Part shown: in pieces, positions 38,540 to 46,289 of the stretch
Layout: the number at the start of each line of letters is the position of its first letter
Position numbering within the stretch: the first letter of the stretch is position 1
Assembly: GCF_009914755.1 (NCBI RefSeq)
Contig: NC_060935.1
Length of the DNA stretch: 64,000 bases
Source: the human T2T-CHM13v2.0 reference genome, Homo sapiens
Direction: 5' to 3' (one strand)
Translations under genes and position numbers: made by a program
The notes under the pieces: model-generated
What the model was told of the DNA's origin: nothing
The model's input: the letters and a program-made list of their open reading frames with translations, nothing else
Databases searched by the model: none

Positions 38540-38725
38540 TCTCCTTGGAGGAATTTTCTTCCAATCTGCATCCTATGGGTGAAGGTGGTGATGGTGAAGT
38601 CATGTAATTAGATAACAAACACAGAATGAGACTCTCCTTGGAGGAATTTTCTTCCAATCTGCATCCTATGGGTGAAGGTGGTGATGGTGAAGTCATGTAA
38701 TTAGATAACAAACACAGAATGAGAC
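38540..38725. repeat. Perfect 2 x 93-bp tandem duplication
   Basis: 38540-38632 is identical to 38633-38725. Confidence 0.97.
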
Positions 38726-39307: not shown

Positions 39308-39674
39308 TGTATTAGTCTGTTCTTACATTGCTGATAAAGACTTACCCAAGACTGGGTAATTTACAAAGAAAAAGATGTTTAATGGACTCACAATTCCATG
39401 TGGCTGAAGAAGCCTCACAATCATGGCAGAAGGTGAAAGACATGTCTTACATGGCAGCAGGCAACAGAGAGAATGAGGGCTAAGTAAAAGGGTTTCCTAT
39501 TATGAAACCATCAGATCTCATGAGAGTTATTCACTACCATGACAACAGTTAGGGAGAAACTGCGCCCATGATTCAATTATCTTCCACTCACTGGGTCCCT
39601 CCCACAACATGTGGGAATTATGGGAGCTACAATTCAAGATGAGATTTCAGTAGGGACACAGCCAAACCGTATCA
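39308..39674 (-). mobile_element. THE1 solo LTR (THE1C/D-like)
   Basis: TGTATTAG...CGTATCA termini; perfect TSD GTTGG. Confidence 0.93.
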
Positions 39675-41241
39675 GTTGGGAACACTGGCCTTGGCATAGA
39701 CCCTAGTCTGCCCAGACATTTCCTCAACATTGTTTCTGTCTCTACCCCACTATCACTGTACTCCAACCACATTTTTTTATGGTGAGCAAAGTGTTCCTGA
39801 AGCCTGGGTTTTAGTGCTGCCAAAGCAAGGAATGGAGAAATAGCTCATTCAATCCTTTCTGGAGACAAAAATGGGGTCCAGATGCACCAGGACGTCATGA
39901 GAACATGTTGCTGTGTGGGGAGGGGTGGGCGAGGAAGTCATTCTGTCAACCATCGTCTTCATCTGCAGCTCCAGGATTACTACCAAAACAAAGAAAATTT
40001 TCCCAGGCTGGGGTATCTCTCTCACTCTCTACCCATGATGGGATCCTCTTCTCTCTTATTTTTTGTCCCAGAGAACACTCAGAGCTTGAGAAGGAGACAT
40101 TTGTGACTGAGCTATTCTGCACCTTAAGCATCTTTAGCTACATAGTAAATATCCCTGTGGGTTCTGAAACATAGAAAATAAAGTACTTATTTCCTGTGAT
40201 ACACCCAATTATTCTGCCTTGGAAGAATTGACTATCTTATTCAGAGAATTCATTTACATGTCTATTTACACACAAAATACCCCATTACGATTTTGTCCAG
40301 GCAAGAAGTAATAAATATTGACTGTAATCAATGCTATAGAAAGAAAGAAGACATCATTTCAAATTTGGGTGGGCCCAAAAGTTTTGGAACTTTATTAAAG
40401 TCCAGATCCACAAATAGAATTTATGTAAATTTATGTAGGGGAAAAGTATTCCAAGTGTAATAAACAATGAGCAAAAACAATGAAAGTAGGAATCCAGAGT
40501 AAGATATCATTAATTTTAAATAACGACAACTAATTTCTGGAAGTTATAAAAGCAACACAAAATACTGGCTTTGTGGGTGTTGCCAATATTTATGAAGAAG
40601 CAGTCTACTATCCTACCATCATATGTGAAATAGAGGTCATTAAACTTTCATCTTCAGGTCAAATAAAAACACAAAGAGAATGACTCCCTCTTCCAGAGGG
40701 TCAATCCAACAGACTGAAATTATAGAAGCAGAAGAAAAACAGAACAACATGGAGCTCCTCTGTAATAAATCTACCTTGACTATTTTGGCTGTGAAAAGTT
40801 ATTACTGTTTGTGGAGGATAGGATTTGTAGCTGTTATCCCCAAGACATTATACAAACGAAAGGCACATCCCTTTTGGGGCCTGCAATGGAAATGAAGTAG
40901 AAAAAAAAATGCTTTCGCTTTCTGGCTGCCTAGCTAAATTGCAAAATAAAAACTGGAATATTAACTCCTTATGTGCAATTCACAAATAGTGGGCATAATG
41001 ATATGAATTTTCACATTTAGTACAATTATACTAAAAAGGGAATAATAGCTATTAAAGTGTATAATGCTATGTTTTTGCAAAACATAATTTTCCACCAGAA
41101 AACTAAAAACCTAAATAATTTTTTGGGCAAGGGGCTAGAAAGAGCATAGAAAGTGTCAGTATAGCTCTGTTTCCCAATCTCTTCCAAATTATTCAAATTC
41201 TATTAAATGATTTACAACCTTACCATCAAGACTCACTTTTC

Positions 41242-41541: not shown

Positions 41542-42536
41542 AAACTTCACTTTTCATTCCCCACTCATCAGCTTGAACTCTATGAATGTTTAAGTAGAAA
41601 CTTAATCTATTTCAAAGGGAAAGAAACCTATCTGTGCCCTATTAAAACTTCTAAAGCTTTTTTTCCCTGTGTGAAAATTGCAAATATGGTTTGTTTCTCA
41701 GCTTAATTTTACTCACCTATGAGAATCAGACTACTATTACTTTTTTTCTTTTCTTTTGTATTTCCTATTCTTATACCTTGCCTAAAAGAAAACAGGTCTG
41801 TACATGTTTCTTATATACTTCAGTAACAATTTTACTTTTCAAGTACAAATATTGTAACCAAACTCAGGTCTGGGACACTAGTCACTGGAAAGCCAAAACA
41901 CAAGAGAAAAGCTTTGGTGAAAAGGAAAGTTAGTATTGGTATTAGTCCATTTTCATACTGCTGTGAAGAAATACCCAAGACTGGGTAATAAATAAAGAAA
42001 AAGAGGTTTAATGGATTTACTCTTTCATATGGCTAGGGAGGCCTCACAATCATGGCAGAAGGCAAAGGAGGAAGAAAGCCACGTCTCACGTGGTGGCAGA
42101 CAAGAGAACATGTGCAGGGAAACTGCCCATTATAAAACCATTAGATCTCATGAGACTTATTTACTATCACAAGAACAGCACAGAAAAAACCCACCCCCAT
42201 GATTCAGTTACCTCCCACAAGGTCTCTCCCATGACACATGGAGATTATGGGAGCTATAATTCAAGGTAAGATTTGGGTGGGGACAGAGCCAAACCATATC
42301 ATTTGACCCCTGGCCCCTCCCAAATCTCAAGTCCTCACATTTCAAAATCAATCATGCCTTCCTAACAGTCCCCTGAAGTCTTAACTCATTTCAGCATTAA
42401 CCCAAATGTCCATAGTCCACAGTCCACAGTCTTATCTGAGACAAGGCAAGTCCCTTCTGCCTAGAAGCCTGTGAAATCAAAAGCAGGGTAGCTACTTTCT
42501 AGATACAATGGGGGTACAAGCATTGGGTAAATACAC

Positions 42537-42764
42537 TGTATTATTCAGGATTCTGTAGAGGGACAGAAATAATAAGATATATATAATATATACACACACA
42601 CATATATATTTATATACATACATACATAGCATACATACATACATATATATGTCCTATTATTATCCTATTATAATAAGGCCATAATTACACCTAACATAAT
42701 ACAACTATCTTTTGTACAACTGGAAACACACCAATCCCAACCAAAATGCTCTCTCATATATATA

Positions 42765-42799
<35 letters not shown>

Positions 42800-43355
42800 G
42801 AATATACATAATAGAATATATATATTAGAATACATATCTTCTAAATATATATATAGCATCTATATTCGAATATATATATAGCATATATATTCGAATATAT
42901 ATATAGCATATATATATATATTCAAATATATATATATAGCATATATATATATTCGAATATATATATAGGAGTTTATTAAGGAGTATCAACTCACACAATC
43001 ACAAGTTCCCACAATAGGCCATCTGCAAGCTGAGGAGCACAGAAGCCAGTCCGAATTCCAAAGCTGAAGAATTTGGAGTCCAATGTTTGAGGGCAGGAAG
43101 CATCCAGCATGGGAGAAAGATGTAGGCTGGAGGCTAAGCCAGTCTAGTCTTCTAACATTTTTCTGTCTGCTTTATATTCTGGCTGAGCTGGCAGCTGATT
43201 AGATGGTGCCCACCAAGATTAGGGGTGGGTCTACCTTTCCCAACCCACTGACTCAAATGTTAATCACCTTTGTCAACACCCTCACAGGCACACCAAGGAT
43301 CAATACTTTGCATCCTTTGATCCAATCAATTTGGCACTCAGCATCAACCATCACA
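42537..43355 (-). mobile_element. MLT2A (HERV-L) LTR with an expanded TA-rich tract
   Basis: TGTATTATTCAGGATTCTGTAGAGGGACAGAA (U5 end), GGAGTTTATTAAG (poly(A) signal complement), CAACCATCACA (U3 end). Confidence 0.92.
42578..42967. repeat. Complex (TA)n/(CA)n/(TG)n tract with TTCGAA-(TA)n-GC-(AT)n units
   Basis: Read directly from the sequence. Confidence 0.9.
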
Positions 43356-43810
43356 AGTCCACCCCTTGTCAGCATCAACCATCACAAGTCCACCCCTTGT
43401 CAACTTGAACCCATACACATCTCCTGAGATCATACATAATCTTCAAATAAACACCTTCAAATAATGTCATATTTATGCCTAAGATGATACAACTATCCTT
43501 TGTACAACCGGAAATGCACCAATCCCAACCAAAATGCTATCACATAAACAATATATAACTGCTGATATGAAGTCAATAAATCTTATGTCACATGGTAAAA
43601 AAAGGAAATGAAATGAACATATTTTCTTAGTACAAGTGTATACATGCACAAACATATTTTTAGCAAAAGAAGGAGGAAATACTCATGACAATTACAGTCC
43701 TTGTTTCTGCAACTGGTCACATGGTCGTAGCTAGTAGAGATGACTACCGTTTTCTACTACCCATTCTGTATTCCCTTTGCCTTCAGCAAGAACCTCCACA
43801 GGTTGTGGGG
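43356..43810 (-). mobile_element. HERV-L internal 3' end with PPT
   Basis: AGTCCACCCCTTGTCAACTTG is the ERVL PPT complement; TTCTACTACCCATTCTGTATTCCCTTTGCCTTCAGCAAG matches the ERVL pol 3' region. Confidence 0.88.
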
Positions 43811-43849
43811 TTTGTTTTCTGTTTTTTTTGTTTGTTTGTTTTTGTTTTT

Positions 43850-44138
43850 AATGAAAGAAAGAAGTTTTTTGGACAGTTCCATATGGCTGAGGAGGCCTCA
43901 AAATCATGGCAGAAGGTGAAACTCATGTCTAACATGGCAGCAGACAAGAGAAGAAAGCTTGTGCAGGGAGACTCCCATTTTTAAAACCATCAGATCTCAT
44001 AAGACTTATTCACCATCACAAGTACAGCACAGAAAAGAAAGGCCTGCCCCCATGATTTAATTACCCCCACCAGGACCCTCCCACAACACGTGGGAATTCA
44101 ATATGAGATTTGGGTAGGAACACAGCCAAACTATATCA
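43850..44138 (-). mobile_element. THE1 (THE1A-like) LTR, U3-R only, U5 missing
   Basis: Intact U3 terminus CAGCCAAACTATATCA. Lacks the ~55 nt TGTATTAG...GGGCAATT end present in the other THE1 LTRs in this window. Confidence 0.9.
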
Positions 44139-46289
44139 TATACCCATTCCAAATAGGAGAAATTGGCCAAAATGAAGGGGCTACAGGCCCCATGCAAGTC
44201 CAAAATCCAGTGGGACAGTCAAATCTTAAAGCCAAAGTGATCTCCTTTGACTCCATGTCTCACATCCAGGTCATGCTGATGCAAGAGGCGGGTTCTCATG
44301 GTCTTGGACAGTTCCACCCCCATGGTTTGCAGGGTACAGCCTCCCTCTCAGCTGCTTTCAAGGTCTGGTGTTGGGTGTCTGCAACATTTCCAGGCACACA
44401 GTACAAGCTGTGGGTGGATCTACCATTCTGGGTTCTGGAGGACAGTAGCCCTCTCCTCATGGCTCCACTAGGCAGTGCCTCAGTGGGGAGTGTGTGTGGG
44501 GCTCCCACCCCACGTTTCCCTCCCACACTGCACTAGCAGAGGTTTCCATGAGGGCCCTGCCCCTGTAGAAAACTTCTGCCTGGACATCCAGGCATTTCCA
44601 TATATTCTCTGAAATCTAAGTAGAGGTTTCCAAACTTCAATTCTTGGCTTCTGTTCATCTGCAGGCTCAACACCCCATGGAAACTGCCAAGGGTGGGGGC
44701 TTGCATCCTCTGAAGCCATCCTCTAAACGGCCCAAAGTGTACCTTGGCCCCTTTTAACCAAGTATGGAGCAGCTGGGACACAGGGAGCCAAGTCTGTGGG
44801 CTGCACACAGCAGGGAGACCCTGTTCCAATCCTAAAACCATTTTTTCTTCCTAAGTCTCCAGGCCTGTGATGGTGGGGGCTGCCACAAAGGTCTCTGACA
44901 ACCCCTGGAGACCTTTTCCCCATTGTCCTGATGATTAACATTTGGCTCCTCATTACTTATGCAAATTGCTGCAGCTGGCTTGAATTTCTTCCCCGATAAT
45001 GGATTTTTCTTTGCTACTGCATGGTCAGGCTGCACATTTTTCAAACATTTATGCTCTACTTCCTCTTGAACACTTTGCTGCTTAGAAATTTCTTTCACCA
45101 GATACCCGAAATCATCTCTCTCAAGTTCAAAGTTTCACAAATCCCTAGGGCAGCAGCAAAATGCCACCAGTCTCTTTGCATAGCAAGAGTGACCTTTACT
45201 CAAATTCCCAACAAGTTCCTCATCTCCATCTGACACTACCTCAGCCTGGACTTTATTGTCCATATCACTATCAGCATTTTGGGCAAATCCATTCAGCAAG
45301 CCTCTAGGAAGTTTCAAACTTTCCCACATTTTTCTGTCTTTTTCTGAGCCCTTCAAACTCTTTCAACCTCTACCTGTTATCCAGTTCCAAAGTTGACTCC
45401 ACATTTTCAGGTATCCTTAATAGGAGTACCCAACTCTACCAGTACCAATTTACTGTATTAGTTTATTTTCATACTGCTATAAAGAAATACCTGAGGCTGG
45501 GTAATTTATAAAGAAAAAGGGGTTTAATGGATTCAGTTTCACATGGCTGAGGAGGCCTCACAATCATGGCAGAAGGCAAAGGAGGATCAAAGTCATGTCT
45601 TACTTGGCAGCAGGCAGGAGAGCGTGTGCAGGGAAACTTCCCTTTATAAAACCATCAGGATCTTATGAGACTTCTTCACTATCATGAGAACAGCACAGGA
45701 AAACCTGCCCCCTTAATTCTATTACCTCCCACCAAGTTCATCCCATGATGTGGGGATTATAGGAGTTACAATTCAAGATAAGATTTGGGGAGGACACAGC
45801 CAAATCATATCAGTATTTTTTGGCAAACCAGCAACCCAGGGAAGGGCTAGGAATCTCTGTTCAGAGATTGCATCTCCAAATTGTGTCTCTGGGTAAGGAG
45901 TTTTTAAGGAAAACTAGGAGAGTACAAATGATGATCAAAGCATTCTTGTGAAACGTGCACTGTCTCAAGTTGGCAGTTAATCATTGCTTTCTTGGTTATT
46001 GTTTTGTGGCCTTCTGCAATCACCATCAGGCTATTCTTTATCAGGCCAGTCAGCTCATTCTCAGAGTTGCTGGCTAGCATATTTTCTTTTATCTCTGTTG
46101 AAGGTCCTGTCTTCCTGAGGCTGTTTTTAATGAATAATTTACAAACTTAATCAAAGTAATAATTATATCCAAGCAAATAAGCTTTTCTCTAACAGAGTCA
46201 ATACTGTTACAATATAAATATCAGTATTTTATATGTTAACTTTTCTAATGGTTGCTTTTTGCCAGAAGAATGCTTAAATAGTATTTCTT

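What the first reader, a model, noticed from the sequence alone, without database searches (positions are those of the whole stretch)
42537..44138. Chimeric THE1 / HERV-L provirus with two heterologous LTR ends inside one TSD: fossil of MaLR-ERVL co-packaging?
Seen, minus strand 5' to 3': an intact THE1 U3 end (44138) and THE1 U3-R stopping just past the poly(A)-signal position, with U5 absent. Next come a ~39-nt A-rich tract (43811-43849), ~450 bp of HERV-L 3' internal sequence, the PPT and a complete MLT2A LTR with an intact U5 end (42537). The host THE1 internal sequence ..GGTAAATACAC|CCATTCCAAAT.. resumes exactly, with a 5-bp TSD TACAC (42532-42536) / TATAC (44139-44143). The THE1 piece is the short LTR form, unlike the host LTRs. 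Known: MaLRs lack pol and are thought to be mobilised by ERV-L, and both make 5-bp TSDs. Inference: minus-strand synthesis on HERV-L RNA switched at an internal A-run onto the poly(A) tail of a co-packaged THE1 RNA. Plus-strand priming at the THE1 PPT would then give an integrable DNA with THE1-U3 and MLT2A-U5 ends. An alternative is bimolecular integration of two cDNA ends. Caveats: the TSD has one mismatch and the THE1 poly(A) signal here is degenerate.
Basis: partly seen in the sequence, partly recalled or inferred. Interest (0 to 1): 0.85.

Follow-up and report, generated by a model that had tools for sequence, protein, structure and literature searches.

The report
Hybrid MaLR / HERV-L retroelement insertion
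A single ancient insertion on human chromosome 11 has one end from a helper-dependent MaLR retrotransposon and the other from the HERV-L retrovirus, joined in a way that suggests the two RNAs were copied together inside one virus-like particle.

Summary
Window 42537-44138 (minus strand) is one block inside a full-length THE1-like element. It is flanked by a true 5-bp target-site duplication (GTATA/GTGTA). In 7 of 7 other THE1-internal copies the host sequence runs straight through the site with one copy of the 5-mer.

The left part is a MaLR LTR with an intact 5' end. Its homology to full LTRs stops 15-19 nt after the poly(A) hexamer, and the last ~60-65 nt (U5) are missing. Six L1-type retrocopies elsewhere in the genome end at that same LTR position and carry poly(A), which marks it as the natural MaLR poly(A) site.

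The A-rich tract sits exactly where HERV-L has an internal A6-9 run. That run is the only A>=7 run in two of three near-full-length copies, and one of two such runs in the third. After it come about 400 nt of HERV-L 3' internal sequence, the PPT and an MLT2-type LTR whose U5 end abuts the duplication.

Best reading (about 0.6): reverse transcriptase jumped from the HERV-L A-run onto the poly(A) tail of a MaLR RNA, and the dead-end cDNA was integrated. No second copy was found. Orthologues could not be checked. The MaLR piece looks MST-like rather than THE1 (recalled label). This is a new variant of a known kind and moderately interesting.

The parts
41938..45812 (-). Host: full-length THE1-like MaLR element. 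5' LTR is 45812-45454 and 3' LTR is 42301-41938. Its own 5-bp duplication AATAC lies at 45817-45813 and 41937-41933.
   Evidence: the two LTRs are 83.4% identical over 361 aligned nt, and AATAC is found on both flanks; a PBS-like TGGTAC... follows the 5' LTR.
44139..44143 (-). Upstream copy of the 5-bp target-site duplication (GTATA on the minus strand; one substitution).
   Evidence: 7 of 7 other THE1-internal copies have a single 5-mer here, with G at its third position in all seven.
43850..44138 (-). MaLR LTR U3-R, short-form AATAAA type. The 5' end TGATAT is intact. The degenerate hexamer lies at 43870-43865. Homology ends at 43851-43848. U5 is absent.
   Evidence: 81-84% identity to the six nearest genomic LTRs over the whole piece, and 87-89% over the last ~140 nt. 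family D2: no U5 copy in the insert.
43811..43849 (-). A-rich tract at the junction, in the position of HERV-L's internal A6-9 run.
   Evidence: in 22 other HERV-L copies, 18 have A6-9 here, 2 are degenerate or divergent, and 2 are expanded to A-rich microsatellites.
43403..43810 (-). HERV-L 3' internal sequence, starting immediately 3' of the A-run.
   Evidence: 39 of 39 non-self scored hits are 85-88% identical; alignment with 14 copies.
43338..43402 (-). PPT (gacaaggggtggac) plus the first ~19 nt of the LTR, present as a perfect 31-bp tandem duplication.
   Evidence: period 31, 100% matches; the duplication is absent from 6 of 6 other copies.
42537..43355 (-). MLT2-type LTR of HERV-L. The LTR proper is about 43355-42950 plus 42590-42537, and the U5 end ...aataca lies at 42537.
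   Evidence: BLAST to 11 other copies. (the end aligns in 6 of 6).
42591..42968 (-). Extra material inside the LTR, just 3' of its AATAAA. It consists of TA/TG/ATAC microsatellites and an 87-nt copy (42758-42672) of internal sequence 43546-43460.
   Evidence: (D10, 85%). The copy and its in-cis source share two states absent from 11 of 11 other copies.
42532..42536 (-). Downstream copy of the target-site duplication (GTGTA on the minus strand).

Best explanation
The 1.6-kb block is one integrated, dead-end recombinant cDNA.

Inferred course of events:
1. Minus-strand DNA synthesis began normally on a HERV-L RNA. It copied U5-R, jumped to the 3' R, and then copied U3, the PPT and about 400 nt of 3' internal sequence.
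2. At HERV-L's long internal A-run, the nascent T-run left the HERV-L template and paired with the poly(A) tail of a MaLR RNA in the same particle.
3. Synthesis then continued through part of the tail, MaLR R and U3, and into the MaLR PPT region.
4. Plus-strand priming at the MaLR PPT set the left end exactly at the first base of MaLR U3.
5. A class III (ERV-L-type) integrase joined the MaLR-U3 end and the MLT2-U5 end to the target, making the 5-bp duplication.

The product has no PBS and no matching R regions, so it could not replicate further.

What is shown: a single 5-bp duplication around heterologous, exact LTR termini; a junction at the MaLR poly(A) site on one side and at the HERV-L A-run on the other.

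What is inferred: the template switch, the PPT-primed left end, and co-packaging.
For: 1. One duplication for the whole block, with no host base lost (7 of 7 comparison copies).

2. Exact termini. MaLR TGATAT... is at the left and MLT2 ...aataca at the right. No MaLR U5 and no second duplication lie inside.

3. HERV-L breakpoint. In 14 of 14 aligned copies the sequence 3' of the junction follows an A-run directly, and upstream HERV-L sequence (...ccaccagg) is replaced by the MaLR LTR only in the window. In three near-full-length copies the numbers of A>=7 runs on the sense strand are 1, 1 and 2, and the shared one is this run.

4. MaLR breakpoint. It lies 15-19 nt after the hexamer. Six of seven fetched loci (L049-L054) are MaLR LTR fragments that stop at the same ...tttg(t)(aaatt) position and continue as 11-21 A. 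One has an 18-nt duplication and three lie behind sequence I recall as an L1 3' end, so these look like L1-type retrocopies that record the natural poly(A) site.

5. Shared machinery is plausible. HERV-L and MaLR copies share the terminal gactaataca in most rows, a similar 5' terminus, a PBS core TGGTACCAG.AG.G placed 5-6 nt after the LTR, and 5-bp duplications.

6. No second copy of the junction was seen, as expected for a non-replicating product. Of 39 non-self scored hits, 0 span it. Two pattern scans found only the window.

7. Precedent in print. Retrovirus-derived RTs switch between internal A-stretches and poly(A) tails in vitro (PMC6839120, abstract). Co-packaged VL30 and host RNAs recombine with MLV by template switching (PMC4997597, passages). 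Template-switch complexes flanked by a single 5-bp duplication occur in grasses (PMC1950507, first part of the text).
Against: - This is a single locus. Two pattern scans for a MaLR motif next to the HERV-L post-A-run motif found no other case. Their sensitivity is limited (33 fixed bases, at most 3 mismatches).
- The A-rich tract does not prove a poly(A) tail. The same A-run is expanded without any chimera in 2 of 22 other copies, and two more expansions are visible in the listing.
- The hexamer in this copy is now AAAAAA, so its function in the donor is only assumed.
- The left end needs an unusual step: priming at the acceptor's PPT, and loss or trimming of the minus-strand extension. No direct trace of this step exists.
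- The element has been rearranged after or around integration (31-bp perfect duplication, 87-nt internal copy, large microsatellites). Deletions at this locus are therefore not far-fetched.
- The identical ~10-nt termini of MaLR and MLT2 LTRs offer a slippage route to the exact right end.
- Orthologous loci were not examined, because none is held.
- The pattern was not specific: the reversed control gave 138 matches against 87. The seven loci examined were picked by eye from 22 distinct places.
Confidence: 0.6

Rival explanations
1. Stepwise origin at this locus. A MaLR solo LTR integrated first and made the GTGTA duplication. A HERV-L provirus later integrated into the last ~60 nt of that LTR. 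One deletion removed the HERV-L 5' LTR and about 5.5 kb of internal sequence. A second small deletion, by slippage between the near-identical ...gactaataca termini, removed the remaining MaLR U5.
For: MaLR and MLT2 LTRs end in the same ~10 nt, so a precise slippage deletion is conceivable. A-rich tracts are unstable. The element shows other rearrangements.
Against: This route needs two deletions whose four breakpoints all fall on special positions. These are the MaLR poly(A) site, the only shared long A-run of HERV-L, and both exact LTR termini. No remnant of MaLR U5, of the HERV-L 5' part, or of a second 5-bp duplication is present.
Confidence: 0.12
2. No co-packaging. At a donor locus an L1-mediated retrocopy of a polyadenylated MaLR RNA landed in the A-run of a HERV-L provirus, a good L1 endonuclease target. 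RNA from that composite donor was then reverse-transcribed, the internal MaLR PPT primed the plus strand, and the truncated product was integrated here.
For: L1-type retrocopies of RNAs ending at the MaLR poly(A) site exist in this genome. An A-run is the kind of site L1 uses (recalled). This route explains the same junction.
Against: No donor or sibling with this junction was found: 0 of 39 non-self scored hits span it, and the pattern scans found only the window. It requires an extra rare event in an active HERV-L copy, and it still needs the same unusual left-end step.
Confidence: 0.1
3. Bimolecular integration. The U3 end of a MaLR cDNA and the U5 end of a separate HERV-L cDNA were inserted together at one target, and the host then joined the two free inner ends.
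For: It would also give heterologous exact ends inside one 5-bp duplication.
Against: A normal MaLR cDNA carries U5 after R and no poly(A). The inner joint would be expected at arbitrary positions, not at the poly(A) site and the A-run.
Confidence: 0.08
4. A reverse-transcription switch without a poly(A) tail. The HERV-L minus strand jumped, through AAA microhomology, onto a MaLR DNA intermediate (plus-strand strong-stop DNA) or onto MaLR RNA within ...gtaaa.... The long A-tract is a later expansion of the HERV-L A-run.
For: The A-run expands on its own in 2 of 22 copies. Copying a strong-stop DNA to its 5' end would give the exact U3 terminus without trimming.
Against: The match of the MaLR breakpoint with the mapped poly(A) site would then be chance, roughly a 10-nt window in a ~365-nt LTR.
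Confidence: 0.07

Closest known systems
Retroviral recombinants with co-packaged retroelement or host RNA (MLV with VL30; oncogene capture)
   Same: Template switching during minus-strand synthesis between a replication-competent virus RNA and a co-packaged non-autonomous or host RNA (PMC4997597 passages; PMC6466679 passage on VL30 co-packaging). That poly(A) or A-rich joints occur in such recombinants is recalled, not checked.
   Different: Those recombinants keep matching LTRs and a PBS and can replicate with a helper. This product has two different LTR ends and no PBS, and is a single dead-end copy.
[quoted passage not shown]
   Same: The composite of two parent RNAs is flanked by one 5-bp duplication, which was taken as proof of a single integration (PMC1950507, first part of the text).
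   Different: There both parents belong to one family, the outer LTRs are alike and a third LTR is shared. Here the parents are an autonomous element and its presumed parasite, and the outer ends are heterologous.
Mosaic HERVs (Harlequin and others)
   Same: Inter-element recombination after cross-packaging is proposed. MaLR fragments are noted inside HERV chains (PMC4724089 passages).
   Different: Those mosaics have like LTRs, and several re-integrated as families. The MaLR pieces were mostly judged there to be secondary insertions or software artefacts. No MaLR/HERV-L joint at a poly(A) site is described in the passages read.
L1-mediated chimeric retrocopies and 3' transductions
   Same: RT template switching or read-through joins two RNAs. 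MaLR LTR poly(A) sites are used in such copies (L049-L054).
   Different: L1 products end in poly(A) and have long duplications (18 nt in L052). Here the A-tract is internal, the ends are exact LTR termini and the duplication is 5 bp.
RT template switching between internal A-stretches and poly(A) tails in cDNA synthesis
   Same: It uses the same homology (A-run against poly(A)) and retrovirus-derived RTs (PMC6839120, abstract).
   Different: It is an in vitro artefact and does not give an integrated genomic product.

Membership tests
Integrase-mediated class III (ERV-L / MaLR) LTR-element insertion | Exact TG...CA element termini | tested here: met
   Left end TGATAT... (aligned with 9 LTRs). 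Right end ...aataca (aligned with 6 of 6 HERV-L LTR ends).
Integrase-mediated class III (ERV-L / MaLR) LTR-element insertion | 5-bp target-site duplication | tested here: met
   GTATA/GTGTA, with a single 5-mer in 7 of 7 uninterrupted copies. For comparison: host AATAC/AATAC, HERV-L L041 CCCGG/CCCAG, MaLR L014 CCATC/CCATC.
Integrase-mediated class III (ERV-L / MaLR) LTR-element insertion | Two LTRs of the same kind, with a PBS after the 5' LTR | tested here: not met
   The left LTR is MaLR U3-R only and the right is MLT2-type. No TGGTACCAG-type PBS follows the left LTR. It is therefore not a normal provirus of either family.
RT template-switch recombinant (copy-choice between two RNAs) | Both parents identifiable, with one duplication around the whole | tested here: met
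RT template-switch recombinant (copy-choice between two RNAs) | Joint at a stretch of shared sequence between donor and acceptor templates | tested here: met
   HERV-L A-run against the MaLR poly(A) addition site.
RT template-switch recombinant (copy-choice between two RNAs) | Both RNAs present in one particle | not testable with these tools
   This is inferred only. A shared PBS core and shared LTR termini make a shared machinery plausible.
Simple nested insertion | Inner element flanked by its own duplication, and outer element continuing on both sides | tested here: not met
   No MaLR sequence follows the MLT2 end, and there is no second duplication.
L1-mediated retrocopy | 3'-terminal poly(A) and a 7-20-bp duplication | tested here: not met
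   The A-tract is internal. The 3' end is an LTR terminus. The duplication is 5 bp. Contrast L052, with an 18-nt duplication.
   No repeat library is held. The piece is 81-84% identical to short-form AATAAA LTRs and 78-79% to the host's long-form ATTAAA LTRs. Calling the former MST-like is recalled.

The most novel reading that the evidence does not exclude
The locus is a physical fossil of a MaLR RNA and a HERV-L RNA inside the same ERV-L particle. One reverse transcriptase copied both, and one integrase processed a MaLR U3 end together with a HERV-L U5 end. That would be the first direct evidence, beyond sequence resemblance, that primate MaLRs were mobilised by the HERV-L machinery. It would also single out HERV-L's long internal A-run as a hot spot for jumps onto poly(A) tails.
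Probability: 0.5. Interest if true: 0.65.

Novelty: new variant of a known kind. Interest (0 to 1): 0.55.

Why it matters
MaLRs are the most numerous LTR elements of mammals. They encode no enzymes and are assumed to have been moved by ERV-L (stated as such in PMC11319637, passage read). That assumption rests on resemblance alone. A chimera whose joint carries the signature of an RT jump onto a MaLR poly(A) tail, and whose two ends were integrated together, would link the two families mechanistically.

It also gives a concrete search image for a genome-wide or mouse (MERVL with MT/ORR1) survey: a MaLR LTR cut at its poly(A) site, then an A-tract, then ERV-L 3' sequence and an MLT2 LTR, all inside one 5-bp duplication.

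As a single non-replicating copy it has no evident effect on the host.

Tried and rejected
- Second copies of the junction. A 301-nt junction query gave 39 non-self scored hits out of 3117 first-look candidates. 25 covered only the LTR side and 14 only the HERV-L side.
- Pattern scan 1 (MaLR motif, gap of 60-170, HERV-L motif, up to 3 mismatches). It gave 88 matches, with 0 for the reversed control. By eye, all but the window are HERV-L's own upstream sequence, which happens to resemble the short MaLR motif, plus a few unrelated interruptions.
- Pattern scan 2 (a different MaLR motif). It gave 2 matches: the window, and L048. L048 is a THE1-like LTR nested in an inverted MaLR LTR, so it is a false positive.
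- Smit 1993 (PMC309426 / PubMed 8388099), wanted for the published MaLR poly(A) site: not held. The site was mapped from retrocopies instead.
- L055, the seventh locus, is not a MaLR LTR and was dropped. The other 15 of the 22 distinct places were not examined.
- Literature. Searches listed no paper that, by title or abstract, describes a MaLR/HERV-L chimera or MaLR co-packaging. This covers only the open-access library, and only listings and the passages named in this report were read. Supplementary tables of PMC4724089, which list mosaic chains, were not opened and could contain this locus.
- L1-mediated origin at this locus: rejected on the 5-bp duplication, the internal position of the A-tract and the exact LTR termini.
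Full report
**What is there.** Read on the minus strand, the window holds a full-length THE1-like MaLR element at 45812-41938. Its two LTRs are 83.4% identical over 361 aligned nt, and it has its own 5-bp duplication AATAC. Its internal part is interrupted by a 1602-bp block, 44138-42537.

**The duplication is real.** I searched the window's own assembly with the host sequence just 3' of the block. That gave 39 non-self hits at 88-92% identity, scored out of 2030 candidates. I compared seven fetched copies with both flanks. In 7 of 7 the flanks are contiguous and overlap by exactly five bases (GTGTA in 3, ATGTA in 3, TTGTA in 1). The window has GTATA (44143-44139) before the block and GTGTA (42536-42532) after it. 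No host base is missing.

**Left part.**
- From 44138 the block aligns base for base with the start of MaLR LTRs (TGATAT...; six genomic relatives and three LTRs of the window).
- It belongs to a shorter LTR form. It lacks a 15-nt block (also absent from 4 of its 6 nearest relatives) and a 10-nt block (absent from 6 of 6). Both host LTRs carry both blocks.
- Its relatives carry AATAAA where the host LTRs carry ATTAAA.
- Identity is 81-84% to those relatives and 78-79% to the host LTRs. From memory this form is MST-like rather than THE1. No repeat library was available to test that.
- Homology to complete LTRs stops at 43851-43848, 15-19 nt after the hexamer position (43870-43865, now AAAAAA). 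The remaining ~60-65 nt of the LTR are absent. The U5 block found in the three other LTRs of the region has no copy in the block (family D2).

**Right part.**
- 43810-43400 matches HERV-L internal sequence. 39 of 39 non-self scored hits are 85-88% identical, out of 1328 candidates.
- The PPT (gacaaggggtggac) and the LTR start (ttgtgatgg...) follow. Here they form a perfect 31-bp tandem duplication that 6 of 6 other copies lack.
- The LTR aligns with other HERV-L LTRs over about 43355-42950 and again over 42590-42537. Its last bases ...aataca align with the ends of 6 of 6 other 3' LTRs and touch the duplication.
- Between the two LTR segments, just 3' of the LTR's AATAAA, lie about 360 bp of TA/TG/ATAC microsatellite. 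This stretch includes an 87-nt copy (42758-42672) of internal sequence 43546-43460, at 85% identity.
- That copy shares two states with its in-cis source that 11 of 11 other HERV-L copies lack. It therefore comes from the same lineage, and it is old. I cannot explain it.

**The joint, HERV-L side.**
- The junction query showed that HERV-L hits run into the A-rich tract. Four hits begin at query positions 142-148, which correspond to window 43849-43843.
- Fourteen copies were aligned with 120 nt of upstream flank. All 14 read ...ccaccagg, then an A-run, then cc.acaacctgctgagg... Twelve have A6-9. Two (L011, L012) have the run expanded to a roughly 40-nt A-rich microsatellite.
- Eight further copies were examined. 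Six have A6-9, one is degenerate at that point, one is too divergent to read, and none is expanded.
- In the window everything 5' of the run is replaced by the MaLR LTR.
- In three near-full-length copies (about 6.5 kb of mutual homology), the counts of A>=7 runs on the sense strand are 1, 1 and 2. The shared one is this run. The HERV-L breakpoint therefore sits at the one long A-run of the genome.
- This also means the 39-nt tract is not proof of a poly(A) tail. It could be an expanded internal run.

**The joint, MaLR side.**
- Smit 1993 is not held, so I mapped the natural poly(A) site from the genome itself.
- A pattern of the hexamer region followed within 5-30 nt by 14 A gave 87 matches at 22 distinct places. 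The pattern was not specific: the reversed control gave 138 matches.
- I picked seven places that looked MaLR-like by eye and fetched them.
- Six (L049-L054) are MaLR LTR fragments that stop at ...tttg...tttgt...tttgtt or ...aaatt and continue as 11-21 A. None continues into U5.
- L052 is a 5'-truncated fragment flanked by an 18-nt duplication. L049, L050 and L051 follow directly on what I recognise from memory as L1 3' ends, as in 3' transduction.
- These are L1-type copies of RNAs polyadenylated in a MaLR LTR. They place the cleavage site 14-19 nt after the hexamer, the same position (within about 3 nt) as the end of the MaLR piece in the window. The seventh locus (L055) is not MaLR and was dropped.

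**Interpretation.**
- The block has exact, heterologous LTR termini within one 5-bp duplication. Internally, the 3' end of a polyadenylated MaLR RNA (U3-R) is joined to HERV-L at its A-run.
- The simplest single event is a minus-strand template switch from the HERV-L A-run onto the poly(A) tail of a MaLR RNA in the same particle.
- Homopolymer-guided switching between internal A-stretches and poly(A) tails is documented for retrovirus-derived RTs in vitro (PMC6839120, abstract). Template switching onto co-packaged retroelement or host RNAs is documented for MLV (PMC4997597, passages). Single-duplication template-switch composites are documented in grasses (PMC1950507, first part of the text).
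- The exact MaLR U3 terminus implies priming at a MaLR PPT. The acceptor RNA therefore carried MaLR internal sequence upstream of the LTR, and a transcript merely ending in a solo LTR would not do. This step, and the trimming of the minus-strand extension, are inferred.
- HERV-L and MaLR copies share the terminal ~10 nt gactaataca and a PBS core TGGTACCAG.AG.G placed 5-6 nt after the LTR. Both make 5-bp duplications. All this fits one shared machinery.
- The product lacks a PBS and matching R regions. In keeping with that, no second copy was found.

**Rivals.**
- Stepwise insertion plus two deletions would need four breakpoints on special positions and leaves no remnant. However, the shared LTR termini could guide a slippage deletion, and this element has clearly been rearranged. 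I give it 0.12.
- An L1-mediated MaLR retrocopy in the A-run of a donor HERV-L, followed by aberrant replication, explains the joint without co-packaging. It needs an extra rare event and an unseen donor. I give it 0.10.
- Bimolecular integration does not explain the joint (0.08).
- A switch onto a MaLR DNA intermediate with later A-run expansion makes the poly(A)-site match a coincidence (0.07).
- An L1 insertion at this locus is excluded by the 5-bp duplication and the exact termini.

**Comparison with what is known.**
- RT-level recombination between co-packaged elements is well known.
- MaLR dependence on ERV-L is stated but is indirect (PMC11319637 passage; PMC6466679 passages).
- Published ages are MST 75, THE1 55 and HERV-L more than 80 million years (PMC1794541, Table 1). 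Overlapping activity is therefore plausible. Nesting inside a THE1-like host shows that both partners were still active after that host inserted.
- Eight literature searches listed no description of a MaLR/HERV-L chimera of this kind. Only the open library was searched, and the supplements of PMC4724089 were not opened.

**Verdict.** The decisive orthologue comparison could not be run. I rate it a new variant of a known kind, with interest 0.55.

Noticed in passing
window 42672-42758 and 43460-43546: An 87-nt stretch of HERV-L internal sequence is copied into the microsatellite block inside the LTR, just 3' of the LTR's AATAAA. The two copies are 85% identical and share two states absent from 11 of 11 other HERV-L copies. 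The duplication is therefore old and from the same lineage. Its mechanism is unexplained; it could be a second aberrant strand transfer or early repair synthesis.
   Followed up: partly
window 43338-43402: A perfect 31-bp tandem duplication spans the PPT and the first ~19 nt of the MLT2-type LTR. It is absent from 6 of 6 other copies, and at 100% identity it is presumably recent.
   Followed up: partly
window 38540-38725: Two perfect tandem copies of a 93-bp unit (family D7). The context was not examined.
   Followed up: no
window 39310-39678: Another MaLR LTR in the same orientation, long-form with ATTAAA. It was used only as a comparison sequence.
   Followed up: no
L049-L054 (six places in the window's genome): MaLR LTR fragments that end at the LTR's poly(A) site and continue as poly(A). 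One has an 18-nt duplication (L052). Three lie directly behind sequence that I recall as L1 3' ends, which looks like L1 3' transduction terminated by a MaLR LTR.
   Followed up: partly
L011 and L012; also two rows: The internal A-run of HERV-L is expanded into A-rich or GAA-type microsatellites of about 40 nt in a minority of copies.
   Followed up: partly
L041, L045, L017 and window 45453-45430: HERV-L and MaLR elements share a PBS-like core TGGTACCAG.AG.G placed 5-6 nt after the 5' LTR, as well as the last ~10 nt of the LTR.
   Followed up: partly
L048 1246-1606 and flanks: A THE1-like LTR is nested in an inverted MaLR LTR. It matched the second pattern scan by chance resemblance and is not a HERV-L chimera.
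   Followed up: yes
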